Assembly: GCA_963702475.1 (NCBI GenBank)
Contig: CAVPCT010000003.1
Span: forward strand, 1-64,000
Source of the DNA: an uncultured Thermoleophilia bacterium
Lineage (GTDB): Bacteria > Actinomycetota > Thermoleophilia > UBA2241
Direction of reading: 5' to 3'
Length of the DNA stretch: 64,000 nucleotides
This document shows, piece after piece, positions 4,884-25,341 of this stretch (its first letter is position 1; the number at the start of each line of letters is the position of its first letter). The position numbers and the translations under genes were made by a program. The notes under the pieces are model-generated. The model saw only the letters and a list, made by a program, of their open reading frames with translations. It had not been told where the DNA came from and ran no database searches.

Positions 4884-5120
4884 GTGGATGGCACGCGAAG
4901 GGACTCCCCAGCCTCCGTTGTGACTCCGCCCCAGATCGCACGGCCACCCCAAACGCTTGAACTCCCCGCCCTCCGGGCGTACCCGACCCCATACGAGACT
5001 CCTGAGTAGTAGTGCAGCGTTGCGCGCGGGAGGCGACGATGCGCCGAAGGCACCTGACGGCCACCTTCATCCTCCGGGGAGCCACTGGTGAGACAACCCG
5101 CGGGTCGAAGGGGGTGCGCG

Positions 5121-5804: not shown

Positions 5805-5872
5805 GCCGCACGACTCTGCTGGTCTCGGCGATCACCCTGTCGGCCGGGTGCGCCTCGTAGGGACGGTCGCCG

Positions 5873-6097
5873 TCAGGCGCACTTATACGCAGATCGGCCG
5901 GACATGCGATAGGCCATGACGGTCTCCGTGACCCACGCGATCTCCTGCCGCTCGTCGCTGGTAAGCCCCGAGATGAAGTGCGCATGCACAGCGCGGGCGT
6001 GCGCGAACATGGCGTCCTTCACTTCGCCGGTACTGCTACCGGTAGCGACGAACTTGCAGTGCTTGAATCCCAGGTCCCTGCAGCTCAGCACGAACAT
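5873..6097 (-). CDS. DUF1059 family small metal-binding protein
   Basis: MFVLSCRDLG..CKFVATG...AHARAVH; GGAGG RBS. Confidence 0.8.
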   Translation of the reverse strand: MFVLSCRDLGFKHCKFVATGSSTGEVKDAMFAHARAVHAHFISGLTSDERQEIAWVTETVMAYRMSGRSAYKCA

Positions 6098-6422
6098 GGT
6101 CCCCTCCCGCTTCCTTTCGTCCTGCACTCGCCACTTCATCGTGCAACGGCCGCTCTTCGCCGAGCGCTTTCGACGAGGGTGGCCCCAGTGAGCCACGCGC
6201 CCTGTGAATGTAGTCCGTGAAGGCGTTGAGGCGCATCAAGCGAACGGGTACTTCCCCGTCGCCAAATGGGTACGTTGGGTGGCTCGATGGCGTCGGGTGC
6301 GCTGCTGAACGCAGTCCTGCTTGCGCGGTATACGGAACCCCTCGTGCGCCGCTAGCTCCGTTGGGAGAGCGCCGCCTTTGCACGGCCTACGGAGACGAAA
6401 AGCCTCCCCTCAAGACGCGAGA

Positions 6423-6520
6423 GACGAAGCGACGCAGGACTCGTCAATCTGCAACCCTGTCTGCAACCCACACGATCCCCGTCGACGTCGGTCGCATGGT
6501 CGCTTTGGTCGCCGCCCGCA
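6423..6520 (+). repeat. ~98-bp dispersed repeat, copy 2
   Basis: Aligns with 767-864. Confidence 0.85.
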
Positions 6521-8310: not shown

Positions 8311-9389
8311 TGCACTGTCTCCAAAACAGCTTTGCAGCGCCCGACCTTCTCGAGGATGGCCTCGACCGAGGCCGTCCAGACGAACGGCTTGGGATCTTCG
8401 TTGTGGGCCTCGAGGAAGGCGCCGATGGCGGCGACGAGGTCGGGCACGCTGGGGAAGACGCCACGGCGCAGAGCCTTCTCGGTCAGGTCTCGGAACCAGC
8501 GCTCGACGAGGTTCAGCCAGGAGCTGCTCGTGGGCGTGAAGTGCAGATGGAAGCGCGGATGCTTCTCGAGCCAGGCAGCGGCGTTGGCGTGCTTGTGCGT
8601 CTGGTAGTTGTCGAGGATCAGGTGCAGCTCGAGATCGCGCGGGAACTCGCGGTCCAGGGTGCGCAGGAACCTCAGGAACTCCTGGTGACGGTGGCGCGGC
8701 AGGCACTGGCCGACGACGCTGCCGTCGAGCGTGCTCAGCGCCGCGAACAGGGTCGTCGTGCCGTTGCGCTTGTAGTCGTGGGTCATGGTGCCGGCGCGGC
8801 CGCGCTTCATGGGCAGGCTCGGCTGCGTGCGGTCGCGCGCCTGGATCTGGCTCTTCTCATCGACGCAGAGCACGAGCGCCTTCTCGGGCGGGTTCAGGTA
8901 GAGCCCGACCACGTCGGTGAGCTTCTCCGTGAACAAGGGATCGTTGGAGAGCTTGAACGCCCGCGTGCGGTGCGGCTGCAGGCCGTGAGCGTCCCAGATG
9001 CGCTGCACCGTCGCCGGGCTCACGCCCTGGGCCTTGGCCATGGAGCGGCAGCTCCAGTGCGTCGCCCCCGGCGGGGTCGTCTGGGTCGTGGCCGCGATGA
9101 TCGCCTTGACCTTGGCCGCCGAGATCGTGGGCTTGCGGCCGCGGCCCGGCCGCGTCTCGGTCAGCGCCTGCGGGCCACCCGCTTCGAAACGACTGCGCCA
9201 GAGGATCACCGTCGGCCGACTGACCCCCAGCGCGCGGGCGATGGCGCTGTTCGACTCACCAGCGGCGGCCAGGAGCACGATGCGCGCACGCAGGGCCACG
9301 CTCTGCGGCGTCTTCTGCGCGCCGGCCCAGCGCTCCAGCACAGCTCGCTGCTCGTCCGAGATGCAGCTCTGAAGGGTCGCCCGCGCCAT
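8307..9389 (-). CDS. IS630 family transposase
   Basis: VDEK, ILDNY, WLNLVERWF motifs. Confidence 0.95.
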   Translation of the reverse strand: MARATLQSCISDEQRAVLERWAGAQKTPQSVALRARIVLLAAAGESNSAIARALGVSRPTVILWRSRFEAGGPQALTETRPGRGRKPTISAAKVKAIIAATTQTTPPGATHWSCRSMAKAQGVSPATVQRIWDAHGLQPHRTRAFKLSNDPLFTEKLTDVVGLYLNPPEKALVLCVDEKSQIQARDRTQPSLPMKRGRAGTMTHDYKRNGTTTLFAALSTLDGSVVGQCLPRHRHQEFLRFLRTLDREFPRDLELHLILDNYQTHKHANAAAWLEKHPRFHLHFTPTSSSWLNLVERWFRDLTEKALRRGVFPSVPDLVAAIGAFLEAHNEDPKPFVWTASVEAILEKVGRCKAVLETVH

Positions 9390-9864: not shown

Positions 9865-10053
9865 CAACGGCCGCGACGAAGAAACGCCGCCCTCTCTCAG
9901 TCTGTATGGATGGGAAGATGCTTCCAGCCGACGCGGGGAGGGGACATGGCCGCCACGCAGCCTAGACAACGGCGTGCAGCCGCAGCCACCTGGACGGTAG
10001 CGCTCGTCGTCCCGCTGCTGCTGTGCGCCAGCGTGACCTTCACCGCGTGCGGC
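9865..10053 (+). repeat. ~189-bp promoter/RBS/lipoprotein-signal module, copy 1
   Basis: CAACGGCC..GAAGAAACG...GTCTGT.TGGATGG...TCCAGCCGACGCGGG.GAGGGGACATG through the lipobox Cys-Gly codons; also at 11382 and 24218. Confidence 0.9.
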
Positions 10054-11019
10054 GCCTCGGGCACGACGTCGACCTCACCGTCGGCGGTGTCCAGCCCGGC
10101 AGCGGCCTCGCCCTCAGACGCGGCGTCCCCAAGCAGGACGCCCTTGCCCGCGCCCACCGTCGCCGGGACCATCGCCTTCGCCAAGGTCACCCCGACCGGG
10201 CGCGGTTTCGCCACGGGTGACATCTACGTCGTTCGCACCGACGGCACGGGCCTCACAAGGCTCGCCGCCGGTACTGCCGATGAGTGCCAGCCGGCTTGGT
10301 CGCCGGACGGCCGGCGGATCGCCTACGCCGCAGGTCGCCCCGCAGCCGGCCCGCACAGCTACGTCGTGCGCGTCATGAACGCCGATGGCACCGGCAAGGA
10401 GATCCTGCCTGGAGTTGCGATCGCCGGGCAGTTGCCCGCGTGGTCGCCCCGCGGCACGCAGCTCGCCTTCTACCACCCCCCGCGGTCGAAGCCGGTCTTG
10501 GCCTGGAAGACCCAGGGCTGGGACGGCCTGTTCGTCGTGAACGCCTACTGGAACGGTTGGGGAGGGAGCCCGACGCGCCCCGCGACGGGCGACAGGTTCG
10601 CCGCGTATGCGCCGGACGGGCGGCTCTACTTCGTGAGGCGCGGCATCGGTGACATCTTCTGCGTCTATCGCACCATGACGACTCGCGTCACGACCAGCGG
10701 TGGCCTGGGCGCCTTCTCGCTCTCGCCCGACGGCACACGGCTGGTCGTCTACGACAAGGAGCACGACCATCTCGTGCTCCGATCGACGAGCGCTGGAGGG
10801 ACCCCGGTGGTGCTCGTCGACGATGTGTCACGGTACGTCAACGCCTCGATGGTCCGTCCGGCGTGGTCGCCCGACGGCACGGCGATCGCCTTCGCCGCCA
10901 GCAGCGTCGACGGGCATCCCGGCGGGTCCGGGCTCTACGTGATCAACGCCGACGGCACCGGGTTCTCCAGGGTCCCCATGAAGGGCAGGGTGTGCGACCC
11001 CGCCTGGCGGCCGGAGTAA
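9946..11019 (+). CDS. TolB-like (PD40 beta-propeller) lipoprotein
   Basis: Lipobox FTAC; repeated PAWSPDG motifs; ends DPAWRPE. Confidence 0.85.
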   Translation: MAATQPRQRRAAAATWTVALVVPLLLCASVTFTACGASGTTSTSPSAVSSPAAASPSDAASPSRTPLPAPTVAGTIAFAKVTPTGRGFATGDIYVVRTDGTGLTRLAAGTADECQPAWSPDGRRIAYAAGRPAAGPHSYVVRVMNADGTGKEILPGVAIAGQLPAWSPRGTQLAFYHPPRSKPVLAWKTQGWDGLFVVNAYWNGWGGSPTRPATGDRFAAYAPDGRLYFVRRGIGDIFCVYRTMTTRVTTSGGLGAFSLSPDGTRLVVYDKEHDHLVLRSTSAGGTPVVLVDDVSRYVNASMVRPAWSPDGTAIAFAASSVDGHPGGSGLYVINADGTGFSRVPMKGRVCDPAWRPE

Positions 11020-11381: not shown

Positions 11382-11570
11382 CAACGGCCACGGCGAAGAA
11401 ACGCCCCCCTCGCTCGGTCTGTATGGATGGCAAGATGCTTCCAGCCGACGCGGGGAGGGGACATGGACGCCACGCAGCCTACACAACGGCGTTCCGCCGC
11501 AGCCACCTGGACGGTAGCGCTCGTCGTCCTGCTGCTGCTGTGCGCGAGCGCGGTCGTGAGCGCCTGCGGC
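11382..11570 (+). repeat. ~189-bp promoter/RBS/signal module, copy 2
   Basis: Colinear with 9865-10053. Confidence 0.9.
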
Positions 11571-12342
11571 GGCTGCCGGCACGACGACGAGCTCGCCGAG
11601 CGCCGCCGCCCCACCCGGCGCCGCTGTGACGCCGAGCGCCACCCACTGGGACTACGTCGTGATCGGGGATTCCGCCTTCTGCGCGCCGGATGACATCACC
11701 ACGGTCGCGGACGCTCAGGCGCGGCTCATCGCGCGGGACCTCGGCACGGAGGTGAGCGTCGACTGGTACTACTACCCGGGTGCGAACAGCCAGTACGAGC
11801 TCTCTCGGCTGCGCCACGACGAGACGCTGCGCAAAGCCATCAGCTCGGCCGAGGTCGTGCTCTTCGACGTCCCTGTCGGTCAGCTGAAGGAAGAGATCCC
11901 CTGGGACGACAGTGCCTACGTGGCGCTTCCCGGCAGTCCGGCACGGTACAGGAAGGGCATGGCGCGGATGCTCCCCGACTACCGCAGGGACGCGGAGGCC
12001 ATTGTTGCCGAGATCACGTCGCTGCGCAGCCCCAGCGAGGCGAGCATCCGGGCCATCGACGGCTGGCAGCTGGGCTTCCGCGGCTTTCGCACGCTGGGTG
12101 TGGGCGACGTCATGCGGCAGGCCTGGCGGCGCATGAACCGCGCCGTCGATGCGGCTTGTGCGGCGCACGGCGTGACCGTGGTCGACGCCTACACGGCCTT
12201 CGGGGGACCCGACGGTACGAGGGACCCGATCACCGCCGGCATCATCCTGCCGGACCAGATGCATCTGACGGACAAGGGCGTCGCCGAGCTTGCGAAGCTG
12301 CTCCACGAGGAGGGCTACGCCGAAGTGGTCCCGGCGCCGTAG
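11463..12342 (+). CDS. SGNH/GDSL hydrolase lipoprotein, frameshifted in the linker (~11570-11625)
   Basis: Lipobox VSAC; VVIGDS block I; PDQMH (DxxH) block V. Confidence 0.75.
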
Positions 12343-13150: not shown

Positions 13151-13730
13151 CTGTGGCTGGTGACTCGAGGCGGGCTTGTCGACAGGACGCCGGTATGGCT
13201 GTTGTCACGCAGTCGACCGGTCATCGAGGTTTCGCCTTCTCGTCGGCTTTCGGGCTGGATGGGCTGGGTCAGCCCGCAGGCGCCTAGGCGCACGGTCCGT
13301 TCTGTTCTGCAACCCAACGCTCGCCCGTGCTGATGAACTGATGAACTGGCCTGGTGAACTGTGCGTGTGGAGTGCGTCTGGATGGGACGCGATGGCGCTC
13401 GTCGGGACCAAACGGCACTGGTCTGCCGCTCTGTGGGCATCCTGAGCGAGTACGTGTCTGCTCGCAGCACGGGAGGGTGGTGTGCAGCTTTCGCGGCTCC
13501 TCGAACGGTTCCTGGTCCTCGCCTGCGTCGCCGCGGACGCGTTCTTCGGGTTCGTCTGCGCCGGCCACAAGCCGCGGTGGGGCGCTGAGCAGAGCGAGAG
13601 CGAGCTCCACGACTTGCGAGCCGGCGGCGGCCGCAGGCCATGTGCTCCCAAGCATCGCACCATCGCCCCACGGCGTCTGAGAGCCGTTCGCGACGAATCA
13701 TCTGGGAGCCATGCGGCAGGGGGAGACGAC

Positions 13731-15908
13731 ATGAAGGAGTCAACCGCAACGCCGATCTTGCCGGCAGTGCTTGCGCTGGCGGCGGCCCTGCTGGTGCTCG
13801 CCATCTCGGCGCCGCTGGCGGCCGCCGGTCCAGAACTCCGTGCGGCGCCGCTGAATCCGGCCTTCCTGCGGTCCCTGGTGAGTCCGCCCGTCGGCGTGCC
13901 GTCGAGCGCAGCCGGCGGCCACGGTTTCGGCGGAACGCCCGGCCCGCAGGACATGTCCTACACCCGCGGGATGCAGGTACCCGCCCCGATCGAGCTCGGG
14001 ACGCCACCGGCGGCCTACGACCTGCGCACGCTCGGCAGGGTCACCGCGGTGAAGGACCAGGACCCCCACGGCACCTGCTGGGCGTTCGCTTCATTAGGCT
14101 CTCTTGAGTCCTGCCTGCTGCCCGGCGAGGCCTTTGACTTCTCCGAGGACAACATGGTCCTCACCAGTGGCTTCGACCACGGGGCGGACCCCTACACGGG
14201 CGGGCAGATCTGGATGTCGACCGCCTACCTGGTCCGCTGGGGCGGCCCTGTCTACGAGAGCGAGGACGCCTATGGGGACAGCACGACGCCGACCGGCCTG
14301 AGCCCGCGCACGCACGTGCAGGAGGTCTACTGGATCCCGGTGCGTGGATCGGCTCTCGACAACGACAACATCAAGAACGCGGTCATGCAGTACGGCGGCG
14401 TCGACGTCTCGATGAGCTGGCCCGGCAGCAGCGGGGGCGACTCCTCCTACAACGCTGCGACGGCGAGCTACTACTACAACGGCAGCTCGAGCAACGATCA
14501 CGAAGTACTCGTCGTCGGCTGGGACGACAACTACCCTGCCGCCAACTTCGCCACCACCCCCCCAGGCAACGGTGCCTTCATCGTCAAGAACAGCTGGGGC
14601 TCCACGTGGGGCAGCAACGGGTACTGCTACGTCTCCTACTACGACTCCAAGTTCGGCCGAGGCTCCAATCCCTCCGCTGTGTTCAAGAAGGCGGAGCCCA
14701 CCAGCAACTACACCGGCATCTACCAGTACGACCCCCTGGGTGACTGCAGCGAGATGGGGTATTCGAACTCCACCGGATGGTTCGCCAACGTCTTCAGCGC
14801 CCAGACGACTGCGGCCCTGGGCGCCGTCGGCTTCTACACCCTGTCTCCGGGCACGAGCTACGAGGTCTACACCGGCTCCAGCCTCGCCGCCAAGACGCTG
14901 CGCACGAGCGGCACGCTGCCCTACATGGGCTACCATACCGTGACCCTGCCCTCACCCGTGGGCGTCACGAGCGGCCAGTCCTTCGTCGTGGCCGTCAAGG
15001 TCACGTCGCCCGGAACGACCTATCCGATCGCCGTCGAAGCCCCGATCGCCACCTACCGCTCCAGCAGCGCCACCGCACAGGCCGGGCAGAGCTACACGAG
15101 CTCTACCGGGGTGAACTGGACGGATCTCACGACCACGGCCGCCAACGCCAACGTCTGCCTCAAGGCGTACACGACCGGGTCGGGCCCGGCGCCTACGCCC
15201 ACGCCGACGCCTACGCCCACGCCGACGCCCACGCCGACGCCGGGTAGCGACGACGACATCCCCGGCGTGGCTCTCCCGTCGTCGCCGATCATCACCGGGA
15301 CCGTCTCCCGGGACACTGACCTGGACGACGTCTACCACTTCACGCTCACCAGCGGACGAACGCTGCAGGCGGACCTCCTCAGGGGGCCTGCCGGCAGTGA
15401 TTTTCGCCTCTACCTCTACGGGCCCGGCACGGCGAGCGTCAAAGACCCATCCACGCCCTACCTGGCGGTGGCCCGCGGCACCTACCCCTGCAGTCTCACG
15501 TACACGGCCACCCAGAGCGGCAGCTACTACCTCGACGTCCACGCCTATAAGGGCGTCGGGGCCTATGCGGCGATCTGCTACTTCAGCGCACCGGGGCCCG
15601 ACGACACCGTCGGCCCCGTGTGCGCCGCGAAGGACGTCACCGTCAAGCGCGGCAAGACCTGCAAGATCTACTTCAAGGTGCACGACGTGCTCAGCGCGTA
15701 CGTGACGACCCATCTCGCCATCACGACGAACTCAGGGATCGTCAAGAAGAGCTGGTCGTGGGACTACGAGAAGGACTCCGCCCGCTGGCGGTGGACCAAG
15801 TACACCTGCCGACTCGCCAAGGGCACCTACCGCATCGTCGTCACGGGTGAGGACCTCGCCGGCAACAGGGCCAGCGTGGTCGGACGGGCCACGCTGACGG
15901 TGGAGTAG
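13731..15908 (+). CDS. Secreted C1 (papain-like) cysteine protease with lectin-like domain, PT linker, PPC-like and Ig-like C-terminal domains
   Basis: Signal peptide; DQDPHGTCWAF, DHEV, IVKNSWG catalytic motifs; IYQYDPLG lectin-like start. Confidence 0.9.
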   Translation: MKESTATPILPAVLALAAALLVLAISAPLAAAGPELRAAPLNPAFLRSLVSPPVGVPSSAAGGHGFGGTPGPQDMSYTRGMQVPAPIELGTPPAAYDLRTLGRVTAVKDQDPHGTCWAFASLGSLESCLLPGEAFDFSEDNMVLTSGFDHGADPYTGGQIWMSTAYLVRWGGPVYESEDAYGDSTTPTGLSPRTHVQEVYWIPVRGSALDNDNIKNAVMQYGGVDVSMSWPGSSGGDSSYNAATASYYYNGSSSNDHEVLVVGWDDNYPAANFATTPPGNGAFIVKNSWGSTWGSNGYCYVSYYDSKFGRGSNPSAVFKKAEPTSNYTGIYQYDPLGDCSEMGYSNSTGWFANVFSAQTTAALGAVGFYTLSPGTSYEVYTGSSLAAKTLRTSGTLPYMGYHTVTLPSPVGVTSGQSFVVAVKVTSPGTTYPIAVEAPIATYRSSSATAQAGQSYTSSTGVNWTDLTTTAANANVCLKAYTTGSGPAPTPTPTPTPTPTPTPTPGSDDDIPGVALPSSPIITGTVSRDTDLDDVYHFTLTSGRTLQADLLRGPAGSDFRLYLYGPGTASVKDPSTPYLAVARGTYPCSLTYTATQSGSYYLDVHAYKGVGAYAAICYFSAPGPDDTVGPVCAAKDVTVKRGKTCKIYFKVHDVLSAYVTTHLAITTNSGIVKKSWSWDYEKDSARWRWTKYTCRLAKGTYRIVVTGEDLAGNRASVVGRATLTVE
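15192..15242 (+). repeat. Pro-Thr linker tandem repeat (CCNACG)n
   Basis: Encodes PTPTPTPTPTPTPTPTP. Confidence 0.9.
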
Positions 15909-16001
15909 GGCGCCCGGCGATACGGAAGCGACGGGCCAAGACGGGAGCGAGCCGAAGACCGTCTGACGAAGCCGGGCGCAAGGGTCTGGGGCCGGGCGGC
16001 A

Positions 16002-17774
16002 TCACCGCCCCTCGCCAGACCCCTGCGCCAAGATCGCGATGGCCGCCCGGTCCGTCTCGATGTCCTGCCGCGCCACGGCGTCGGTAGGGTCCTTCGCGGC
16101 GAGGCGTTCGTCGATGTCCAGGGCGGCGCGGAGGTGGCGCAGTGCCGCCCGCGGCTCTCCCTTCTCAGCCAGCGCGCCACCGAGGTTCCTCAAGGTGACG
16201 GCGACCGCGCGCTGCCACTCCGTGTTGGCCGGGTCCCAGGCTGCAAGCCTGCGCTTGATGGCGAGCGCCGCGCGGTAGTGGCCCAGGGCGCCGTCAAGGT
16301 CGTGCTGTTTGGCGAGCACGACGGCGATGTCGTTGTGGTCCCAGGCGACGTTCTGCTGCCAACGCGTGTTGAGCGGATCGGTGGCGGCCAGGCCCTCGTC
16401 GATCCGCAGCGCTGCCCGGTAGTGGCTCAGGGCTCCGTCCAGGTCGTTCTGCGTCTCCAGGACGACCCCGATGTTCGCGTGGTCCACGACGAGGTCGTCC
16501 TGCAGCTGCGTGTCGCCCGGATCGCTGTCGTGTGCCCTCTGGGCGATGTCGAGCGCCGTCTGGTAGTGCTGAAGAGCCTCGTCCAGGCGCATCTGCCACT
16601 TGAGCACGTCGCCCACCTGGGTGTACGCGAGGCTGAGCTCGCGCTGGTAGTCGGTGTCGGTAGGGTCGGTGGCCGCCACGCGTCGCGCGATCGCCAGGGC
16701 GGCCTGGTAATGCCGCAGTGCTTCCGGCAGCTCGCGCTGCTCCTCGAGAGCCCTGCCGATGAGCTCATGACTCACGGCGAGGTTGCGCTGCCAGAGGACG
16801 TTGTCGGGCTGGCTGCTCGTCAATCGGGTGGTGACCTCCATGCCTGCCCGGTACTGCCGAAGGGCGGCCTCGAGGTCGCCTTGGGCCATGAGGCGATCGC
16901 CTTTGCCGTTGAAGGCGGCGGCACGGTTCAGCAGCGTCACCGAGATGCCGGCCTCAGTACCGAGTTGCCGGTAGTAGTCGTCGACCTTCGCCTGCACCTC
17001 TTCAACCACGTCCAGGCGACCCAGGGGTCGCAGCAGGTCGCGCACGTCGTACAGCAGCACCTCGAGGATCTTCTCCGCCTCTTGCCGCGCCCTGACCGCC
17101 TTGTCGCGTTGCTCGCGCGCGGTGTTGCGCTGCATCACCGCGTAGGCGGAGAGCCCCGCGAAACCCACCGCGAGAGCCAACACCGCGGCGATGACCGTCT
17201 GCAGGCGCCGGATCCGCCGATGCGAGTCGCGCTGCTTGAGCGCGTCGAAGCCGACCCCAAGCATCCCCGAGAGGAGCTTGAGGCGGGCGTCACGCCGTCC
17301 GTCGCCCTGGGGTCGCGCGTCCGCCGCCAGCGGCTCGGTCTCTCGCAGCGCTACGGGAAAGCACTCGTCGTCGCCTCCGGTGTTGGGTTCGCCCTCGACG
17401 ATGAGCGTCAGCACGCGGCCAGGCCGGCCCAGCGCCTGGAACGTCTCGACCTCCTTGTTCACCCAGGGTGAGCGCGCCGCGCGCGGCGAGCACACGACGA
17501 TGAGGTAGCGGGAGGCGCGCAGGGCCGCCTCGATCTGCGTGCCGAGGTCCGCGGCCGCAGGTAGCTCGGACCGGTCGCGAAACAGCGGCTTGAGTCGCTT
17601 TGGGGCAGGCTCCCCGGTGGGGGTGAGGTGGTCGACGAGGCGGGCGGGGATGCCGTAGGACTCTATGGCACGCTGCAGCCAACGAGCCCAGGACTTGTCG
17701 GTGCTGCTGTAACTGATGAAGGCCCAGTACGTGTACTCGGCATGCTGTGCCCCCGGTGCCTGATCGTCGTCCAC
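16002..17774 (-). CDS. TIR domain - transmembrane helix - TPR repeat protein
   Basis: YWAFISYSSTD, LFRDRSEL, IVVCSPRAARSPWVNKEV (catalytic-position Glu); TM VIAAVLALAVGFAGLSAYAV; ~49-aa repeats AL.HY..AL.I...LAA.DP....WQ. Confidence 0.9.
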   Translation of the reverse strand: MDDDQAPGAQHAEYTYWAFISYSSTDKSWARWLQRAIESYGIPARLVDHLTPTGEPAPKRLKPLFRDRSELPAAADLGTQIEAALRASRYLIVVCSPRAARSPWVNKEVETFQALGRPGRVLTLIVEGEPNTGGDDECFPVALRETEPLAADARPQGDGRRDARLKLLSGMLGVGFDALKQRDSHRRIRRLQTVIAAVLALAVGFAGLSAYAVMQRNTAREQRDKAVRARQEAEKILEVLLYDVRDLLRPLGRLDVVEEVQAKVDDYYRQLGTEAGISVTLLNRAAAFNGKGDRLMAQGDLEAALRQYRAGMEVTTRLTSSQPDNVLWQRNLAVSHELIGRALEEQRELPEALRHYQAALAIARRVAATDPTDTDYQRELSLAYTQVGDVLKWQMRLDEALQHYQTALDIAQRAHDSDPGDTQLQDDLVVDHANIGVVLETQNDLDGALSHYRAALRIDEGLAATDPLNTRWQQNVAWDHNDIAVVLAKQHDLDGALGHYRAALAIKRRLAAWDPANTEWQRAVAVTLRNLGGALAEKGEPRAALRHLRAALDIDERLAAKDPTDAVARQDIETDRAAIAILAQGSGEGR

Positions 17775-17796
17775 GGCCCCTCCAAGGTCCGACGAG

Positions 17797-18321
17797 TCAG
17801 AGTCGCGACAGCGTCACGGCCCCCTTGTTGACCCTGATCCACATGACGGGCACTCCCGCGCTGCGCGCGTACTCGACGATCTCCGCTGTCCCGCCTCTGC
17901 CGCGGGAGGGTTCGCCGTCCCACACGGCCAGCAGCGCGTCGCTTGCGTCGACGATGCGGCGCCCGGCTCGCTCGTAGCCCTCCTCCCGAGTGGTCGTCGG
18001 ACCCATCGTCTCGACCGCCGCCGCGAGCGCGAGAAGCTCCAGGAAGTCCGCCCGTGACTCCGTGGAGGCGAAGTCGGTCATGTAGTCGGCCGGCGCGAAC
18101 GGCAGGACGGCCGTGAGAGCGGCCCCCGGTCGTTCGAGCACGACGCGGGCGGCCAGTCGGTCCGCTCCCTCGGCGAGGGCCGAGAAGACGGTGAGCCGGC
18201 CGGTCGCGGGCCCGACGTCAGCGTCGGCGATCAGCGTGAGCGCCTCGCGGACTCTGCGTGCCACCACGCACGGGTCGTCGAGGACCCGGTGGCCGGTGAT
18301 GCCGACGCTCGGGCTGCTCAC
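17797..18321 (-). CDS. Stand-alone SLOG superfamily (YpsA-like) nucleotide-binding protein
   Basis: VGITGHR, SALAEGADRL, AVLPF, YERAGRRIVD, LLAVWDG..SRGRGGTAEIV; GTG start overlaps the upstream stop (GTGA). Confidence 0.85.
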   Translation of the reverse strand: MSSPSVGITGHRVLDDPCVVARRVREALTLIADADVGPATGRLTVFSALAEGADRLAARVVLERPGAALTAVLPFAPADYMTDFASTESRADFLELLALAAAVETMGPTTTREEGYERAGRRIVDASDALLAVWDGEPSRGRGGTAEIVEYARSAGVPVMWIRVNKGAVTLSRL

Positions 18322-20084
18322 GACGGCACCGCGGCCTGGGTCTTCTGGGCCTGCAGCCCGACGTCGGCGAGCAGTGCGGGCACGCGGGCGACCGTGGCCC
18401 TGTCGTACTGCTGGACGTCGTGGGGCAGCAGGTCCCACTCCACCAGGTAGGGGCTGGTCTTGCGCGCCATGTCTCGTTCGCCGGCAGCGAACTTCCAGCC
18501 GGCCGCCGCGCGCTCGTCCATCCAGCGCCGGTGCTCCAGCGATGCCATCGTCTCCATCTCCTGTGGCGAGAACCGGTGGAGGTCCGCATCCCAGTCCTGC
18601 AGCGGCGCGACCGCGTACTCTGCTGCGGCCAGAAGCACCGGGATGTGATCGGCGGCGCACCGGTTGGACTCCTTGATGGCCTCGGGAAGCTCCTCCCAGG
18701 GCACGGCCATGGGATTGGTGGGCGCGTCGCGACCGGCCGCCGCCTGCTCCTCCACGTAGAGGTCGTGGGTGGCTCGTGCGAGACGCTCGTGCGTACCGCG
18801 CAGGACAAGGTCGGCCTCGCAGGCCGCATCGAGGAGGCTGAAGGCATGGATGTCGGCGAACTCCGTCTCGGGGACGCTTGGCCCGCCCAGCAACTCGGCC
18901 AGGCCGCGGTCGCCGTCCAGGATCACGACGATGGGCACTCCGCCGCGCAGTCGTGCGTGCATGGTGAGAGCGGCGCTGAAGGCGCGAGTGTCGTCCTGAA
19001 GGCACGCGTAGACGATGGACACAGGCCGGCTGCCGTCCTGAGGCTCGAGGAACGCGCAGCGCTCGAAGGTCGGCGAGCAGACGTCCGCCTGGAGGGGGAC
19101 GAGGTCGCAGGAGTCCGCGAGCTGCGGGCAGCGCTGCAGTAGGGCCGAGCAGCGCTCCTCCGCCACGCGGTCGATCACGCTCATCCTCATCTTCGCCGCA
19201 CCCCTTCGGCGGCGGCGGTGCCACTGCCAGACCACGCGCCGGGCTACCTGCTCGCCGAGGCGCCCGAGCCCGAGGACCAGGACGTGCGGAGGGTCATCGT
19301 CGTCGCCAAAGGCCGGGAACCTGCGCAGCATCGTCCGTGCGCCGCTCTCGAAGATGTTGAAGAACTCCAGGCGAAACCCGCTGCGCGTGTCGGTGTCGAG
19401 CTCGCGCTCTCGCAGCAACCTCCAGAGCTGCCCGTCGACGATGTGGACGAGACAGTGCAGCGGTGGGCCTTTGCGCCTCTCGAGCAGGGCGGCCGTCTGC
19501 GCCGCGATCTCCGCATTGACGGCATCCGGCCCGCAGACCGCGATCACGTGACTCGCGCTGTCCACGCGTGCCAGTCTCAGTGCATGACTCTCCGTGGCGT
19601 CGGCGGTGATCACCGTGATCTCGGCCTCGCGGCAGTTCTCGAGGAGAGGAGCAGTCTGGTCGCGCTCGATCACCAGCACGCGGTGGCCCGCCTTGTGCAG
19701 CTCCAGGGCCAGCCTCAAGCCGCGGCGACCCAGCCCGCACACCACCACGTGACGGCGGGCGAAGCGCTGGCGAAAGCGGAACACCTCCGCGGTCAGAAAC
19801 AGGCCGAGGGTCTTGATGGCGGTGAAGGCCGCCACCACCGGGGCGAGAAAGCGGGCCACCTGCAGCTGCCACACCAAAGGCGACACGTTGCCGCCCGAGC
19901 TGAGTGTGAAGAGCCCCAGGGCGTTGTAGAGGGCGTCCGCAGGGGAGTGCGGCTCGCCCATGGCCGCCCACTGCACCGTCCAGGCCCAGAAGCCGAAGGC
20001 CAGCGTAAGGAGCCAAGCGACCGCCAGCACCTGCCATTGACGGCGTTCGAGCGAGCGAAGAAAGAGTCGAAGTGCACTCGGCAC
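18318..20084 (-). CDS. Channel-like membrane protein with two TrkA-N/RCK Rossmann domains and C-terminal RyR domain(s)
   Basis: TM-pore helix-TM (DALYNALGLFTL); HVVVCGLGRRG and HVLVLGLGRLG; LARATHDLY..PWEELPE..KESNR and LEHRRWMDER...GW...PYLVEWDLLP; AGGAG RBS before GTG. Confidence 0.85.
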   Translation of the reverse strand: MPSALRLFLRSLERRQWQVLAVAWLLTLAFGFWAWTVQWAAMGEPHSPADALYNALGLFTLSSGGNVSPLVWQLQVARFLAPVVAAFTAIKTLGLFLTAEVFRFRQRFARRHVVVCGLGRRGLRLALELHKAGHRVLVIERDQTAPLLENCREAEITVITADATESHALRLARVDSASHVIAVCGPDAVNAEIAAQTAALLERRKGPPLHCLVHIVDGQLWRLLRERELDTDTRSGFRLEFFNIFESGARTMLRRFPAFGDDDDPPHVLVLGLGRLGEQVARRVVWQWHRRRRRGAAKMRMSVIDRVAEERCSALLQRCPQLADSCDLVPLQADVCSPTFERCAFLEPQDGSRPVSIVYACLQDDTRAFSAALTMHARLRGGVPIVVILDGDRGLAELLGGPSVPETEFADIHAFSLLDAACEADLVLRGTHERLARATHDLYVEEQAAAGRDAPTNPMAVPWEELPEAIKESNRCAADHIPVLLAAAEYAVAPLQDWDADLHRFSPQEMETMASLEHRRWMDERAAAGWKFAAGERDMARKTSPYLVEWDLLPHDVQQYDRATVARVPALLADVGLQAQKTQAAVPS

Positions 20085-20530
20085 GATCGCTCCTGCTGGT
20101 CCCCGGTCCCCACGCGTCCGCGTCGTCCGCGCACAGGCCGGACGCTCTGCGGGACCCTCCTCCCGAATACTACCGGTTCGCGCTCCGCCGTGGCGAGCGG
20201 TCAGCGTGGCTTGCCCGGCGCCGCGCGCACGCCTGCCGCTGCGCATCAACAACCCGACGGCACGATGCCGTGAGCGTCCCTTGCCAGAGGGGTCCGGCAA
20301 GAATCGATCGATCGGTTCTCTCGCTCGTCGGCATCCATGTAGTGTCGGCTCCGACGATTGTTGCGCACGGGGAGTCCGACCCAACGTTGCTGATCGAGGA
20401 CCCTGAGGACCATTCGGCCCCACAGCATCCCTGCATCGCACGGGCGAAGAATCACCAGATTCCGGTGAAGACGGCCGGTCGTGTCCCTCCTATCGTGAGG
20501 CCCGAGGGGAAGCGGCGACGGGAGGTCATC

Positions 20531-21535
20531 ATGACGAGGCTGTTGTTCGCACTCGGCTGCGCGCTCGTGCTCCTGGCGCCGGTCACTCTTGCCGCCTGCG
20601 GCGGCTCGGGGAGCTCGGCGTCGAACCCGCCGTCTGCCACTCCGAGCGAGGCGGCCGCAACCGCCGTGCCCTCGCCGAGCTGGAGCCCGACGATGTCGCC
20701 GGCGGCGATCCCGGTGGTGAAGCCGGGGCAGAAGCTGCCGCCGTTCTCCGAGCTCAAGTCGATGTTCGCCTACGACGCGGTCCAGCCGCTGGGCTTCGAG
20801 TCGCAGCCCGGCGAGCCTCAGCCGGGGGCCACCGTGGAGACCATCTATTACGCCTATGGGGACAGCCAGGCCAGCGGGTACCTGGTCATGCCCGAAGGGG
20901 CGGGCCCGTTCCCGGTGGTGGTCTACGCGCCCGGCTGGAGGACGGACGCCTCGATGTTCCTCGACGACGCCGCTGCCATGTCCAGGAAGGGCTACGCTGG
21001 GCTGTTGCTGCAAGAAGCACCCTCGATGGAGTGCTGGACCTTCGATCCGGACACCGACTGTCGAGGCGTCATAGAGAACGTGACCCAGGAGCGTCGAGCT
21101 CTGGACCTGCTCGAGACCCTCCCGCGGATCGACACGAAGCGCATCGGTTTCGTCGGCTGGAGCAACGGCGCGCACCTCTTGGGCGGAGTCCTCGCCGGGA
21201 TCGACGACCGAGTCAAGGCCTACGTGCTGATCGGGATGGCGCGGCCGGCGAGCAACTACCGCGGTCTGATGGAGGACGCCACCCCCACGGGAAGGGCGTG
21301 GGACCGCATCGTCGCGCAGCTTGCCCTCTGGGACCCCGTGACCTACCTGCGCCACAACAGAGGTTCCGCCTTCCTCTTCATGAACGGTGACGGGGACTCG
21401 AACGCGATGCAGGACGCGAAGGCCTTCATCGCCGCTGCGCCGGACCCCAAGACATGGAAGGTCTACGACGGCGGCCATGCCCCGACTGCGGGGGCGGCCA
21501 AGTACATGCAGGAGTGGCTGCTGGAGAACCTCTGA
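20531..21535 (+). CDS. Lipoprotein alpha/beta hydrolase (dienelactone hydrolase/esterase-like)
   Basis: Lipobox LAAC; GPFPVVVY; nucleophile GWSNG; YDGGH. Confidence 0.85.
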   Translation: MTRLLFALGCALVLLAPVTLAACGGSGSSASNPPSATPSEAAATAVPSPSWSPTMSPAAIPVVKPGQKLPPFSELKSMFAYDAVQPLGFESQPGEPQPGATVETIYYAYGDSQASGYLVMPEGAGPFPVVVYAPGWRTDASMFLDDAAAMSRKGYAGLLLQEAPSMECWTFDPDTDCRGVIENVTQERRALDLLETLPRIDTKRIGFVGWSNGAHLLGGVLAGIDDRVKAYVLIGMARPASNYRGLMEDATPTGRAWDRIVAQLALWDPVTYLRHNRGSAFLFMNGDGDSNAMQDAKAFIAAAPDPKTWKVYDGGHAPTAGAAKYMQEWLLENL

Positions 21536-23817: not shown

Positions 23818-24217
23818 GACGTGATCCTCCCGCTCGGTGGACAGATGAATGCGCGGCTTCAGGCGAGCTTCCCGCTTGCCGCGTAGTGACAGTGTAGTCC
23901 CTGGCTCCTTCCCGCGGACGTTGTCCACTCCGGTGAGTGGCTGTGAGCGCGCCGCCGCACCGGGCCCCACTGCCGAGTGGCAACGACGCACGTGCGCCCC
24001 TGCAGGGAATCCTCATCTGGTAGCCGCTGGCAACGCGCCGCGAGGCCTGGCGAGTGTCATCGGCCCCGTTCCAGCGCTGGCAGTCCTGTTGACGGCGTCG
24101 GCGGCCTGGCGGAGCCGCCCCCAGCGCCTGTCCGTCCGCTTCGCAGCCTCCCGGGACTCCGCGCTGCAGCGCGGGCAGCCGACACCTGCGTCGTCGCTCC
24201 GGCCGCCGGTCGGCTGC

Positions 24218-24405
24218 CAACGGCCGCGACGAAGAAACGCCTCCCTCGCTCGGTCTGTCTGGATGGCGAGGTACGTCCAGCCGACGCGGGAGGGGACATG
24301 GACGCAAGGCAGCTCACGCAAAGACGCTCCGCCGCAAGCGCGTGGGCGACAGCGCTCGTCTGCCTGCTGCTGCTCTGTGCGAGCGCCGTCTTGACCGCAT
24401 GCGGC
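24218..24405 (+). repeat. Promoter/RBS/signal module, copy 3 (more diverged)
   Basis: Colinear with copies at 9865 and 11382. Confidence 0.85.
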
Positions 24406-25341
24406 GCTGCCGGCACGACGTTGTCGTCACCCTCGCCCGGCGAGGTGGCCGCCTCGGTGGCGGCGTCGCCGAGCACGACCCCTCTGCCGAGGGGCGCCGG
24501 CCGCGGCACCATCGCCTTCACCAAGGTCGCCGAGGACTCGAAGACACCGCCTGACATCTACCTCGTGCGCAGCGACGGCAGCGGGCTCCGGCGAGTGGCC
24601 GTGGGCGCGAGGGGACCGGCCTGGTCGCCGGATGGCGCCCGGATCGCCTACGCCTCAGAGTCCGCTCGCGGCGGCGTGTGGGTCATGAACGCGGACGGCT
24701 CCGGCAAACAGCGCGTGACGCCCGCCCCGGGCGGGGCGGACTGGGTCGCGTGGTCCCCGGACGGCAAGCGGATCCTCTTCAGCAGCACCGCCTTCGGCGG
24801 CCTCGCCGCCTTGGGCGGCGCCGACACCCTGGCCGTGGTGGACAGCGACGGCAGCGGCCTCGAGTCGGTGTTCGCAGACGTATCCCGCGGTTCCGGAGTG
24901 ACGGGTTACCCTCTCGCCTGGGCGCCGGACGGGAGGATCCTCTTCGGCCGGAGGAGCGGGAGCCTCGGCGAGATCTGCTCGCTCGATCCCGGCGGTCGCG
25001 GGCCCACCGTCGTCACGGCCACCCAGGTCCCGCCGAGCTTCTCGCTCTCACGGGACGGCAAGTGGCTCGCGATCTGGGATGGGGACGCAGACCGCCTGCT
25101 GCGCATGGCGGCCAGCGGCCGGGGGCTGGCGGTCGTGCTCGTCGAGGAGGTGTCGCAGTACCAGGGTGGGGGCGCCCTGTCGTCCTGGTCACCGAACGGC
25201 GGCCAGCTCGTGTTCGGCGGGGACTCACGGGGGTGGCTGGGTGCCGGGTCTGTCCTCCACGTCGCCAAGACCGACGGCTCGGAGGTGTGGGAGGTGCCGA
25301 ACACCGAGGATGCCTACGACCCGGCCTGGCGGCCGGAGTAG
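24298..25341 (+). CDS. TolB-like (PD40) lipoprotein, paralog of 9946-11019
   Basis: Lipobox LTAC; GTIAF, PAWSPDG; ends DPAWRPE. Confidence 0.85.

What the first reader, a model, noticed from the sequence alone, without database searches (positions are those of the whole stretch)
16002..20084. Candidate new nucleotide-signalling system: RCK/RyR channel + stand-alone SLOG + membrane TIR-TPR operon
Seen: three co-oriented genes, the first two coupled by a GTGA overlap and the third 22 bp downstream with its own RBS. They encode (i) a 2-TM pore-like protein with two Rossmann TrkA-N domains and RyR repeats, (ii) a lone SLOG domain, and (iii) a TIR with the catalytic-position Glu (WVNKE), a TM helix and TPRs. 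Established: in Thoeris, TIR enzymes convert NAD+ to cyclic ADPR isomers that bind the SLOG domain of ThsA; TRPM channels carry a SLOG domain; RCK domains gate K+ channels through nucleotides; SLOG/TIR associations have been noted in comparative genomics. Inference: the TPR senses a trigger, the TIR makes an ADPR-type messenger, and SLOG/RCK-RyR opens a channel, causing depolarisation or abortive infection. No SIR2 or Macro effector is present, so this is not canonical Thoeris.
Basis: partly seen in the sequence, partly recalled or inferred. Interest (0 to 1): 0.88.

Follow-up and report, generated by a model that had tools for sequence, protein, structure and literature searches.

The report
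TIR, SLOG and RyR-tailed channel operon
Three tightly packed bacterial genes encode a membrane-anchored TIR signalling enzyme, a small SLOG nucleotide-binding protein and a potassium-channel-like protein ending in a ryanodine-receptor-type domain, which together look like an untested immune-type circuit in which an NAD-derived signal opens a membrane channel.

Summary
Three co-oriented minus-strand genes lie at 16002-20084, with a GTGA overlap, a 22-nt gap and Shine-Dalgarno sites. Gene 1 is a GsuK-like 2TM pore with two RCK lobes and a C-terminal RyR (Repeat12) domain. Gene 2 is a stand-alone YpsA-like SLOG fold. Gene 3 is a TIR, one TM helix and TPRs, with the catalytic Glu (E108).

I surveyed 161 loci holding this SLOG family:
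- 99 are SLOG-SLATT fusions, and 70 of these have a TIR gene within 6 kb.
- 62 are stand-alone, and 31 of these have a RyR-domain neighbour (19 of 23 with long flanks).
- 22 loci carry the same channel, and 8 of them also carry a TIR. One has the window's exact gene order.

Two 2026 preprints show that phage RyR domains bind or cleave TIR-made 2'/3'cADPR. Four of the six ligand residues of phage RyR Tad are kept in this channel.

Best reading (about 0.55): a Thoeris-type circuit in which the TIR makes an ADPR-derived signal that the RyR tail, with or without SLOG, senses to open a cation channel. It is a new variant of a known kind and is untested. The TIR is a facultative partner, and the region is not a recognisable defence island. 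This scan has noted similar TIR/SLOG/RyR-channel loci on other DNA (19 notes, at least 18 genomes).

The parts
18318..20084 (-). Channel-like gene (588 aa): 2TM pore, two RCK lobes and a RyR Repeat12 tail
   Evidence: Translation. Pfam TrkA_N and RyR. AF2 pLDDT 85.8. Foldseek GsuK 4gx1 E 1e-11, TrkA and RyR3 R12. At least 281 database clusters share TrkA_N+RyR.
20090..20094 (-). AGGAG ribosome-binding site, 5 nt before the GTG start of the channel gene
   Evidence: Read directly from the sequence.
19959..20039 (-). TM1 of the pore module (residues 16-42)
   Evidence: AF2 helix 16-42. Hydropathy segment 19-37.
19872..19943 (-). Pore helix and filter-like loop (residues 48-71). The loop reads TLSSGGNV, not TVGYG.
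   Evidence: AF2 helix 48-60, then a low-confidence loop 62-67. D50 nearly invariant and Y53 invariant in family alignment A5. Motif read.
19764..19871 (-). TM2 / inner helix (residues 72-107)
   Evidence: AF2 helix 72-107. Hydropathy segment 79-97.
19320..19757 (-). RCK1 (Rossmann, GLGRRG) lobe, residues about 110-255
   Evidence: Pfam TrkA_N 113-200, E 1.2e-18. Fold match to GsuK and TrkA.
18795..19292 (-). RCK2-like second Rossmann lobe, residues about 265-430
   Evidence: No Pfam hit. AF2 shows a beta-alpha pattern. Foldseek aligns 400-450 columns to two-lobe TrkA, GsuK and CASTOR gating rings.
18336..18794 (-). RyR Repeat12-type domain with two half-repeats (residues about 431-583). Pocket residues are H518, W521, R537 and D561.
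   Evidence: Pfam RyR. PDB sequence hits to RyR1/3 Repeat12 and the B. thetaiotaomicron RyR protein. Mapping onto phage RyR Tad gp68 residues.
17797..18321 (-). Stand-alone SLOG gene (174 aa). Its GTG start overlaps the channel stop codon (GTGA).
   Evidence: AF2 pLDDT 93.9. Foldseek YpsA, ShosA, DprA, ThsA-SLOG and LOG. At least 752 database clusters.
16002..17774 (-). TIR-TM-TPR gene (590 aa)
   Evidence: Translation. Pfam TIR_2, ThsB_TIR and TPR families.
17779..17783 (-). GGAGG ribosome-binding site in the 22-nt spacer before the TIR gene
   Evidence: Read directly from the sequence.
17325..17732 (-). TIR domain (residues about 15-150) with catalytic-position Glu E108 in WVNKE
   Evidence: Pfam. 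Alignment to 3jrn, Cat1 and AbTIR. The Glu is kept in 88 of 90 aligned TIRs, namely 89 SLOG-locus TIR proteins plus the window's.
17133..17201 (-). Single TM helix (residues about 192-214) between the TIR and the TPRs
   Evidence: Hydropathy segment 194-212, score 2.16. The same TIR-then-TM layout occurs in 68 of 89 TIR proteins at SLOG loci.
16020..16922 (-). TPR array (residues about 285-585), predicted to lie on the side of the membrane opposite the TIR
   Evidence: Pfam TPR_1/2/10/12. The topology is inferred from the single TM helix and the more basic N-side flank, read.

Best explanation
This is a three-gene, Thoeris-type nucleotide-signalling module whose output is a membrane channel.

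Proposed steps:
1. The TIR-TM-TPR protein is a membrane-anchored sensor-enzyme. A cue perceived by its TPR array switches on the cytoplasmic TIR. With a single TM helix, that array is probably outside the cytoplasm.
2. The TIR converts NAD+ into an ADP-ribose-derived messenger, of which a cADPR isomer is the simplest guess.
3. The messenger is bound by the RyR (Repeat12) domain at the C-terminus of a GsuK-like 2TM / two-RCK channel.
4. The translationally coupled SLOG protein acts as a second receptor, adaptor or signal processor.
5. The channel opens, the membrane potential collapses or cations leak, and growth stops (abortive infection or another conflict response).

Shown here: the gene structure, the domain and fold identities, the conserved catalytic and pocket residues, and the recurrent linkage of these gene families.

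Inferred: the signal's identity, which protein binds it, channel gating, ion selectivity, the trigger and the biological role.
For: Operon coupling:
- A GTGA overlap, a 22-nt spacer and ribosome-binding sites.

TIR competence:
- TIR_2 E 8e-16.
- E108 aligns with the W-x-x-x-E Glu of solved TIR NADases.
- That Glu is kept in 88 of 90 aligned TIRs from SLOG loci.

SLOG:
- Fold shown by AF2 and Foldseek: YpsA E 1.7e-8, and the ThsA SLOG with 3'cADPR also listed.
- The same SLOG family is fused to SLATT pore effectors in 99 of 161 loci. 70 of those 99 have a TIR within 6 kb (Pfam tallies). The family therefore sits in TIR circuits as the effector-side domain.

Channel:
- GsuK-like fold with two RCK lobes and a RyR3-Repeat12-like tail.

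RyR as a receptor of TIR signals:
- Phage RyDEP cleaves 2'/3'cADPR and phage homologues bind them at nM affinity (PMC13232231: abstract and sections 4-5 read).
- RyR Tad gp68 binds 3'cADPR, 2'cADPR and cADPR through H129/W132, K147/H154 and K170/D171 (10.64898/2026.06.04.730250: passages read).
- I fetched gp68 and aligned it. The window's repeat 2 has H518, W521, R537, S544, Y560 and D561, which keeps 4 of the 6 positions.
- In the 17-member channel alignment, H is kept in 17 of 17, W/F in 17 of 17 and K/R in 17 of 17.

Linkage:
- Stand-alone SLOG has a RyR-domain neighbour in 31 of 62 loci, and in 19 of 23 with at least 3 kb on both sides.
- The channel is present in 22 loci, and 8 of them have a TIR. 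L016 repeats the order channel-SLOG-TIR.
- Another SLOG family (LSDAT_prok) is fused to RyR in one protein right after a channel homologue in L171.
- The genome has only one RyR gene and two TIR_2 genes.

Accessory distribution:
- SLOG was found in 2 of 36 other genomes of the genus.
- The channel was found in 4 of 400 other genomes of the phylum.
- Two DDE_3 transposase genes lie 7-9 kb away.
Against: - Nothing was tested at the bench.
- 14 of 22 channel loci have no TIR within 6 kb. None of the 4 channel homologues found in phylum genomes has a SLOG of this family next to it under my HMM. The trio is therefore one arrangement among several.
- The window's neighbours are secreted hydrolases, PD40 and FG-GAP proteins and PlsY, not defence genes.
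- PADLOC gives no system-level hit. The best result is a TIR-only match to candidate PDC-S66, E 9e-6.
- Two of the six gp68 ligand positions differ (H154 to S544, K170 to Y560), and D171 is D in only 7 of 17 family members.
- The filter loop is not K+-type and is modelled with low confidence, so conduction itself is unproven.
- The census rests on my own iteratively built HMMs and a home-made gene caller, and kin among the loci are not independent.
- An extracytoplasmic TPR array is unusual.
Confidence: 0.55

Rival explanations
1. SLOG and the RyR channel form the real two-part module, and SLOG is an enzyme rather than a receptor. SLOG would make or convert a nucleotide-derived ligand that the RyR tail reads. 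The TIR protein would be an exchangeable upstream input, or an independent NAD-depleting effector that merely shares the locus.
For: - Stand-alone SLOG is far more tightly tied to RyR (19 of 23 long-flank loci) than to TIR (8 of 23).
- SLOG-channel pairs occur without a TIR in L024, L035, L042, L051, L055, L060 and L076.
- In the gene calls, the SLOG and channel genes overlap or lie less than 25 nt apart in 5 of the 8 SLOG-then-channel loci listed: L042, L051, L060 and L076 overlap, and L013 has a 17-nt gap. The gaps are 42 nt in L024 and 15 nt in L085 and L086.
- The SLOG family keeps many invariant polar residues (H11, R12, D54, R55, D83, R112, Y116, T145; E51 and D135 are nearly invariant), as an active site would.
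- LOG-type SLOGs are N-glycosidases, and some SLOGs are predicted signal generators (PMC9503650, passages read).
Against: - In 99 of 161 loci the same SLOG family is fused to a SLATT pore domain. 70 of those 99 have a TIR nearby. This is the layout expected of a receptor domain on an effector, as in ThsA.
- No catalytic test is possible with these tools.
Confidence: 0.2
2. This is a non-immune transmembrane signalling pathway. An envelope or extracellular cue is sensed by the outward-facing TPR array, relayed by the TIR as a second messenger, and read by a channel that adjusts ion balance or membrane potential. The purpose would be stress, development or kin interactions, not phage defence.
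For: - TIR followed by one TM helix and then TPR or WD40 repeats is the rule for TIR proteins at these loci (68 of 89). This places the repeats outside the cytoplasm.
- The window's neighbours are secreted or envelope proteins, not defence genes.
- There are no PADLOC system hits.
- The TIR-TM module is unusually conserved, at 60-77% identity over 280 residues among the best of the listed rows, out of at least 569 clusters in all. That is more like a signalling part than a fast-evolving immune sensor.
Against: - Patchy, accessory distribution.
- The partners are typical of conflict systems: SLATT, STAND NTPases and WD40/TPR swaps.
- Phages carry RyR-domain proteins that neutralise TIR signals (PMC13232231; 10.64898/2026.06.04.730250).
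Confidence: 0.15
3. This is an ordinary GsuK/Kch-like cation channel gated by cellular NAD(H), ADP or ATP for ion homeostasis. Its SLOG and TIR neighbours would have no shared function.
For: - The best fold matches are GsuK with bound ADP or NAD, and TrkA.
- Databases name relatives 'NAD-binding protein' or 'voltage-gated potassium channel Kch'.
- RyR Repeat12 of animal channels binds ATP and ADP (PDB titles).
Against: - Translational coupling to SLOG.
- Recurrent SLOG, RyR and TIR linkage across phyla.
- Rarity: 4 of 400 other genomes in the phylum.
- No K+ signature in the filter.
- One of only two TIR genes in 4.3 Mb lies 22 nt downstream of SLOG.
Confidence: 0.07

Closest known systems
Type I Thoeris (ThsB TIR + ThsA SIR2-SLOG)
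   Same: A TIR enzyme with the catalytic Glu sits next to a protein with a SLOG fold. In ThsA the SLOG binds 3'cADPR (7uxs is among the fold hits). The logic of TIR-made signal to effector is the same.
   Different: There is no SIR2 or any other NADase effector. SLOG is a separate 174-aa protein that matches no Pfam SLOG family. The predicted output is a channel. The TIR is membrane-anchored with TPRs.
Type X Thoeris (TIR + ion-channel effector ThsK, Bacillus sp. BH32) and type VII (TIR + SLATT), from preprint 10.64898/2025.12.03.692087
   Same: A TIR is paired with a membrane-permeabilising or ion-channel effector. The type X signal is unknown and is none of the known TIR products (passages and section 5 read).
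   Different: The main text held for that preprint has 0 occurrences of 'RyR' and 'TrkA', and mentions SLOG only for types I and III. Its figures and Table S1 were not visible to me, so I cannot tell whether ThsK or any of its 29 putative types has an RCK/RyR architecture. Here there is a third gene (SLOG) and a RyR tail.
TIR + SLOG-SLATT neighbourhoods (Aravind-group predictions; SLATT = SMODS and SLOG-associating 2TM effector)
   Same: The SLOG family is the same. 99 of 161 loci are SLOG-SLATT fusions and 70 of those have a TIR nearby (Pfam SLATT_1, SLATT_3 and DUF4231). The TIR-TM-repeat partner family is also the same.
   Different: In the window, SLOG is split off and the membrane effector is a P-loop channel with RCK and RyR domains instead of SLATT. 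The 2015 source paper was not held in the library. What it shows is recalled, not checked.
Phage RyR-domain anti-Thoeris proteins (RyDEP; RyR Tad gp68)
   Same: Pfam PF02026 fold. The H-x-x-W pair, the basic residue and the Asp of the cADPR pocket are present (H518, W521, R537, D561).
   Different: Those are small soluble phage dimers that destroy or sequester the host signal. Here a tandem two-repeat domain is fused to a host channel, so binding would transduce the signal rather than quench it. The positions of H154 and K170 differ.
GsuK / MthK-type RCK-gated K+ channels
   Same: 2TM pore-helix topology followed by two RCK lobes. The top Foldseek hits are GsuK structures with ADP or NAD bound.
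   Different: The filter reads TLSSGGNV (family consensus S-G-x-V-x-G-P), not TVGYG. There is an extra C-terminal RyR domain and operon partners.
Animal ryanodine receptors and TRPM2
   Same: A cation channel carries a Repeat12 (RyR) or SLOG (TRPM) module, and these channels are linked to cADPR/ADPR signalling.
   Different: The pore families are unrelated (a 2TM RCK channel here) and the sizes are very different. Any evolutionary link concerns the sensor domains only and is inference.

Membership tests
Thoeris-type TIR signalling systems (broad sense) | TIR-domain protein with the catalytic glutamate | tested here: met
   TIR_2 E 8e-16. E108 aligns with the W-x-x-x-E Glu of 3jrn, Cat1 and AbTIR. 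The Glu is kept in 88 of 90 related TIRs.
Thoeris-type TIR signalling systems (broad sense) | Adjacent effector gene carrying a domain able to bind the TIR product | tested here: met
   Met by homology only. SLOG fold. RyR domain with 4 of 6 gp68 ligand residues. No binding was measured.
Thoeris-type TIR signalling systems (broad sense) | Protects against phage; TIR makes a signal on infection | not testable with these tools
   Needs phage challenge and LC-MS.
Thoeris-type TIR signalling systems (broad sense) | Enrichment next to known defence genes | tested here: not met
   The ten window neighbours scanned are transposases, secreted hydrolases, PD40 and FG-GAP proteins and PlsY, and one has no family. 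PADLOC gives no system-level hit for the three proteins. Only this locus was tested, not the family.
Type I Thoeris | SIR2-SLOG effector (ThsA) | tested here: not met
   No SIR2 in any of the three proteins. SLOG is a stand-alone 174-aa protein.
Type X Thoeris (TIR + ion channel ThsK) | Effector homologous to ThsK | not testable with these tools
   No ThsK sequence or architecture is visible. Figures and supplements are not held.
SLOG superfamily | Rossmannoid SLOG fold with Gly-rich nucleotide loop (GGT-x-E type) | tested here: met
   Foldseek hits YpsA, ShosA, DprA, ThsA-SLOG, LOG and MCP. GRGGTAE is conserved (G141, G143 and T145 invariant; G144 nearly invariant). No Pfam SLOG model reaches its cut-off.
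RyR / Repeat12 family (Pfam PF02026) | Match to the family model above the curated cut-off | tested here: met
   45.2 bits against a cut-off of 27.4. 34.9 bits on the genome scan. PDB sequence hits to RyR1/3 Repeat12 and the B. thetaiotaomicron protein.
RyR / Repeat12 family (Pfam PF02026) | cADPR-pocket residues of phage RyR Tad (H129, W132, K147, H154, K170, D171) | tested here: inconclusive
   The window's repeat 2 has H518, W521, R537, S544, Y560 and D561, so 4 of 6 are kept. Repeat 1 has H440, Y443, a gap, N, S and N.
RCK-gated K+ channels (GsuK/MthK type) | 2TM pore helix topology followed by RCK domains | tested here: met
   AF2 secondary structure. Foldseek GsuK E 1e-11. TrkA_N E 1e-18.
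RCK-gated K+ channels (GsuK/MthK type) | K+ selectivity filter T-V-G-Y-G | tested here: not met
   The loop reads TLSSGGNV. The family consensus is S-G-x-V-x-G-P. The Pfam Ion_trans_2 model did not hit. The TVGYG signature itself is recalled.

The most novel reading that the evidence does not exclude
This is the host-side counterpart of the phage RyR-domain sponges: a bacterial 'ryanodine-receptor-like' circuit. A TLR-like transmembrane receptor (outside repeats, one TM helix, inside TIR) would make a cADPR-type messenger. That messenger would directly gate a cation channel through a Repeat12 domain, with SLOG as co-receptor. If so, the disputed cADPR-RyR (and ADPR-TRPM2) links of animal cells would descend from a prokaryotic TIR, SLOG and RyR sensor toolkit. 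Bacterial RyR domains would define a new family of receptors for TIR-made signals, used on channels, STAND NTPases and RelA/SpoT enzymes alike.
Probability: 0.3. Interest if true: 0.9.

Novelty: new variant of a known kind. Interest (0 to 1): 0.78.

Why it matters
TIR enzymes that make ADP-ribose-derived messengers are a shared immune principle of bacteria, plants and animals. What reads those messengers is known for only a few effector types.

Two 2026 preprints showed that phage RyR-domain proteins bind or destroy these messengers, but gave no host protein that uses the same domain. This operon and its relatives supply one: a channel whose cytoplasmic tail is a RyR Repeat12 domain, coupled to a SLOG protein and often to a membrane-anchored TIR.

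If the circuit works as proposed, it would:
- add a new receptor domain and a new effector class to bacterial TIR signalling;
- explain why phages carry RyR domains;
- make the long-argued question of whether cADPR-type ligands act directly on RyR Repeat12 domains testable in a small bacterial protein.

The TIR-TM-repeat layout also raises the possibility of bacterial receptors that sense cues outside the cytoplasm and signal through a TIR.

Tried and rejected
- **Complex prediction.** I submitted SLOG (alignment A1) against the cytoplasmic part of the channel (A5 residues 100-588). The result was no verdict (score 0.00, controls not run). It counts neither for nor against binding.
- **DUF4062 as a TIR relative.** I recalled DUF4062 as TIR-like. 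It heads the STAND-TPR giants next to the TIR-less channel loci L042, L051 and L060. The hhalign comparison of four DUF4062 N-termini with ten TIRs was not significant (probability 0.4%), so I do not count those loci as TIR-bearing.
- **Metagenome scan.** The scan with the SLOG protein did not recover the closest relatives (best 53% identity). I could therefore test the trio among relatives with 60-90% identity only through matching contig lengths in the protein tables. The SLOG and channel tables share five contig lengths (10466, 7094, 3940, 12159, 4727). The SLOG and TIR tables share three (5443, 3638, 10227). This is suggestive only. No TIR relative is listed for the contig that carries the channel and SLOG at about 90% identity.
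- **Phage hits.** A tblastn of the RyR tail against phage records gave one hit, Sinorhizobium phage Phosso. It was of no use for residue mapping, so I fetched gp68 by accession instead.
- **Promoter and terminator scan of 15700-20700.** It found nothing. The consensus used may not suit a 70% GC organism.
- **Papers.** The 2015 SLOG/SLATT paper could not be opened by DOI or by the PMC id I recalled. Searches combining 'RyR domain' with SLOG, TIR, TrkA, prokaryot* or Thoeris found no paper describing a bacterial RyR-tailed channel or a SLOG-RyR link. Supplements and figures were not visible.
- **Gene caller.** My first gene caller missed the channel in L016 and L055. I replaced those counts with a six-frame HMM census.

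Full report
**1. Observation**

The window has about 70% GC. Three minus-strand ORFs fill 16002-20084:
- Gene 1, 18318-20084, 588 aa.
- Gene 2, 17797-18321, 174 aa.
- Gene 3, 16002-17774, 590 aa.

The stop codon of gene 1 and the GTG start of gene 2 form GTGA at 18321-18318. Gene 3 starts 22 nt after the stop of gene 2, behind GGAGG. The longer open frame runs up to 20441.

**2. The three proteins**

*Gene 1.* Pfam finds TrkA_N (residues 113-200, E 1.2e-18) and RyR (two stretches, E 1.1e-11). I built an AF2 model from a 17-sequence family alignment; its mean pLDDT is 85.8. It shows a helix at 16-42, a short helix at 48-60, a poorly modelled loop at 62-67 and a long helix at 72-107. Two Rossmann-type lobes and a helical C-terminal domain follow.

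Foldseek ranks the multi-ligand-gated channel GsuK first (4gx1, E 1e-11; entries with ADP or NAD bound). TrkA, CASTOR and Slo gating rings follow. For the tail, it lists human RyR3 Repeat12 and the Bacteroides/human RyR chimera. The loop after the pore helix reads TLSSGGNV, and the family consensus is S-G-x-V-x-G-P. It is therefore not a canonical K+ filter.

*Gene 2.* No Pfam, NCBIfam or PADLOC family matches. Its model (pLDDT 93.9) is a SLOG fold: YpsA 2nx2 at E 1.7e-8, then ShosA, DprA, the ThsA SLOG bound to 3'cADPR, LOG and Moco carrier proteins. The family is large, with at least 752 clusters. Conserved motifs are G-[VI]-T-G-H-R, L-A-E-G-A-D-R, W-D-G and G-R-G-G-T.

*Gene 3.* It has TIR_2 (E 8e-16), one hydrophobic segment at 194-212 and TPRs. 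E108 in WVNKE aligns with the Glu of the W-x-x-x-E motif of the plant TIR 3jrn, Cat1 and AbTIR. Those E-values are weak.

**3. Related loci**

A pattern scan of one genome per species found 543 relatives of the SLOG protein, and 80 loci were kept. A metagenome scan added 80 more, and one locus came from the genus.

Pfam scans of the called genes gave these tallies:

| Set scanned | n | Families found |
|---|---|---|
| SLOG-bearing ORFs | 81 | SLATT_1 26, DUF4231 18, SLATT_3 13 |
| Upstream neighbours | 71 | TIR_2 14, RyR 13, WD40 10 |
| Downstream neighbours | 74 | RyR 15, TrkA_N 15, TIR_2 8 |

My gene caller missed some genes. I therefore repeated the count with HMMs I built iteratively from the window's domains, run on six-frame ORFs of all 161 loci within 6 kb of SLOG:

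| SLOG form | n | TIR | RyR | Channel |
|---|---|---|---|---|
| SLOG-SLATT fusion, all | 99 | 70 | 11 | 2 |
| SLOG-SLATT fusion, at least 3 kb on both sides | 53 | 40 | 8 | 2 |
| Stand-alone SLOG, all | 62 | 13 | 31 | 20 |
| Stand-alone SLOG, at least 3 kb on both sides | 23 | 8 | 19 | 12 |

Of the 22 channel loci, 8 also have a TIR: L013, L016, L021, L044, L075, L078, L085 and L086. Among the 14 channel loci with long flanks, 5 have a TIR. L016, an Acidimicrobiales MAG, has the window's order channel, SLOG, TIR-TM-WD40.

These counts rest on uncurated HMMs and include related genomes. They show a pattern and are not a statistical test.

**4. The TIR partner family**

Of 89 TIR proteins at these loci, 68 have a hydrophobic segment shortly after the TIR. 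Several of the other 21 are cut by contig ends. The C-terminal parts are WD40 or TPR.

The Glu at the E108 position is kept in 88 of 90 aligned sequences, and the other two are gaps. The first 280 residues of gene 3 have at least 569 database relatives. The best listed are 60-77% identical and carry TPR or WD40 tails.

With one TM helix and a more basic N-side flank (read), the TIR should be cytoplasmic and the repeats outside. This topology is inferred.

**5. Other partners**

TIR-less channel loci carry other large proteins:
- nSTAND5/AAA NTPases of 700-900 aa immediately upstream of SLOG, with RyR repeats (L035, L014) or without (L024, L055).
- Convergent DUF4062-STAND-TPR proteins of about 1250-1380 aa (L042, L051, L060).

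Four channel homologues were found in 400 other genomes of the phylum. None has this SLOG family next to it under my HMM. In one of them (L171) the next gene encodes RelA/SpoT, TPR, LSDAT_prok SLOG and RyR in a single protein, and DUF4062-STAND and WD40 genes lie upstream. SLOG and RyR are thus linked both by neighbourhood and by fusion, using two different SLOG families.

**6. What the RyR domain is likely to do**

Two preprints bear on this.
- PMC13232231 (abstract and sections 4-5 read). [quoted passage not shown] Six of eight phage homologues tested bind these signals, and the two characterised in detail do so at nM affinity. The pocket residues are H75, W78, H100 and D117.
- 10.64898/2026.06.04.730250 (passages read). 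Pectobacterium phage CB1 gp68 ('RyR Tad') binds 3'cADPR (KD 43 nM), 2'cADPR and cADPR. Binding depends on H129/W132, K147/H154 and K170/D171.

I fetched gp68 (L177:12143-12694) and confirmed that those residues sit at those numbers. I then aligned it with both half-repeats of the 17 channel proteins.

| gp68 residue | Window repeat 2 | Channel family (17 sequences) |
|---|---|---|
| H129 | H518 | H 17 |
| W132 | W521 | W 14, F 3 |
| K147 | R537 | K or R 17 |
| H154 | S544 | S 6, N 7, H 4 |
| K170 | Y560 | variable (K in 8) |
| D171 | D561 | D 7, N 8, T 2 |

The variable Asp argues for a binder rather than a RyDEP-type glycosidase in most family members. Neither preprint's text mentions host channels or SLOG.

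**7. Genomic setting**

The assembly has one RyR gene, one SLOG of this family and two TIR_2 genes. The second TIR_2 gene is at contig position about 93.9 kb, outside the window. SLOG was found in 2 of 36 other genomes of the genus, one of them weakly and with stop codons.

The window's neighbours are:
- two DDE_3 transposase genes (7219-9389);
- PD40, GDSL-lipase, papain-like, esterase-like and FG-GAP proteins;
- PlsY.

I see no recognisable defence island. GC content does not differ from the surroundings.

**8. Mechanism and rivals**

The best-supported reading is a Thoeris-type circuit. TIR activation is followed by an NAD-derived messenger. The RyR tail binds it, with SLOG as co-receptor, adaptor or processor, and a cation channel opens.

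- Shown: gene structure, folds, conserved catalytic and pocket residues, recurrent linkage.
- Inferred: everything biochemical.

The main rival makes SLOG an enzyme and the SLOG-RyR pair the core module, because that pair is more constant than the TIR. A second rival keeps the circuit but gives it a non-immune role, as envelope or extracellular sensing. A third treats the gene as a housekeeping RCK channel, which fits the linkage and rarity data poorly.

**9. Comparison and novelty**

The logic is that of Thoeris. Type I membership fails because there is no SIR2.

Preprint 10.64898/2025.12.03.692087 (passages and section 5 read) validates a type X Thoeris with an ion-channel effector and an unknown signal, validates a type VII with SLATT, and lists 29 putative types. 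Its text never mentions RyR or TrkA, but its figures and tables were not visible to me. TIR-SLOG and SLATT predictions by the Aravind group are cited in PMC9503650 and PMC7159879 (passages read). Neither mentions RyR.

My searches found no paper on a bacterial RyR-tailed channel or a SLOG-RyR link. I therefore class this as a new variant of a known kind.

Earlier notes of this scan describe similar TIR/SLOG/RyR-channel loci in at least 18 other genomes. I read them after reaching this interpretation, and they agree with it.

Noticed in passing
window 7219-8310 (+) and 8307-9389 (-): Two convergent, slightly overlapping genes for DDE_3 transposases with HTH domains. They lie 7-9 kb from the operon.
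   Followed up: partly
window 9910-11019 (+), 11427-11693 (+), 23977-25341 (+): Three ORFs share a near-identical lipoprotein-like N-terminus (…CFQPTRGGDM.ATQP.QRR.AAATWTVALVV.LLLCAS…). Of the two full-length ORFs, the first is a PD40 beta-propeller protein; the third was not scanned. The middle one looks like a truncated copy (read).
   Followed up: no
window 13482-15908 (+): An 808-aa secreted papain-family cysteine protease with a lectin-like domain, a PT-rich linker and a pre-peptidase C-terminal domain. It is convergent with the TIR gene.
   Followed up: no
L171:10248-12740 (+), genome handle G074: An 830-aa protein joins RelA/SpoT, TPR/TPR-S, LSDAT_prok SLOG and RyR. It overlaps the end of a channel homologue, and DUF4062-STAND (901 aa) and WD40 (692 aa) genes lie upstream.
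   Followed up: partly
L035:4415-7039, L014:5233-7980, L024:5827-7980, L055:5836-7944: A family of 700-915-aa proteins sits immediately upstream of stand-alone SLOG genes. Each has an unassigned N-terminal 430 residues and an nSTAND5/AAA NTPase. L035 and L014 also end in RyR repeats; L024 and L055 gave no RyR hit.
   Followed up: partly
L042:10631-14344 (-), L051:10224-13979 (-), L060:9013-13146 (-): DUF4062-NACHT/STAND-TPR proteins of 1237-1377 aa lie convergent with the SLOG-channel pair in three Actinomycetota loci that lack a TIR_2 gene. Their DUF4062 N-termini carry an R-V-F-[IV]-S-S-T-F-x-D motif reminiscent of TIR, but hhalign against TIRs was not significant.
   Followed up: partly
G000 contig C3, 93899-94258 (+), outside the window: The genome's only other TIR_2 gene lies in an open frame of 819 aa. 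Its context was not examined.
   Followed up: no
L086:388-3378 (-) and 3456-6449 (-): Two tandem TIR-TM-WD40 genes of about 997 aa lie divergent from a SLOG-channel pair on a metagenome contig. Several TIRs serving one effector side is the layout described for type III Thoeris.
   Followed up: no
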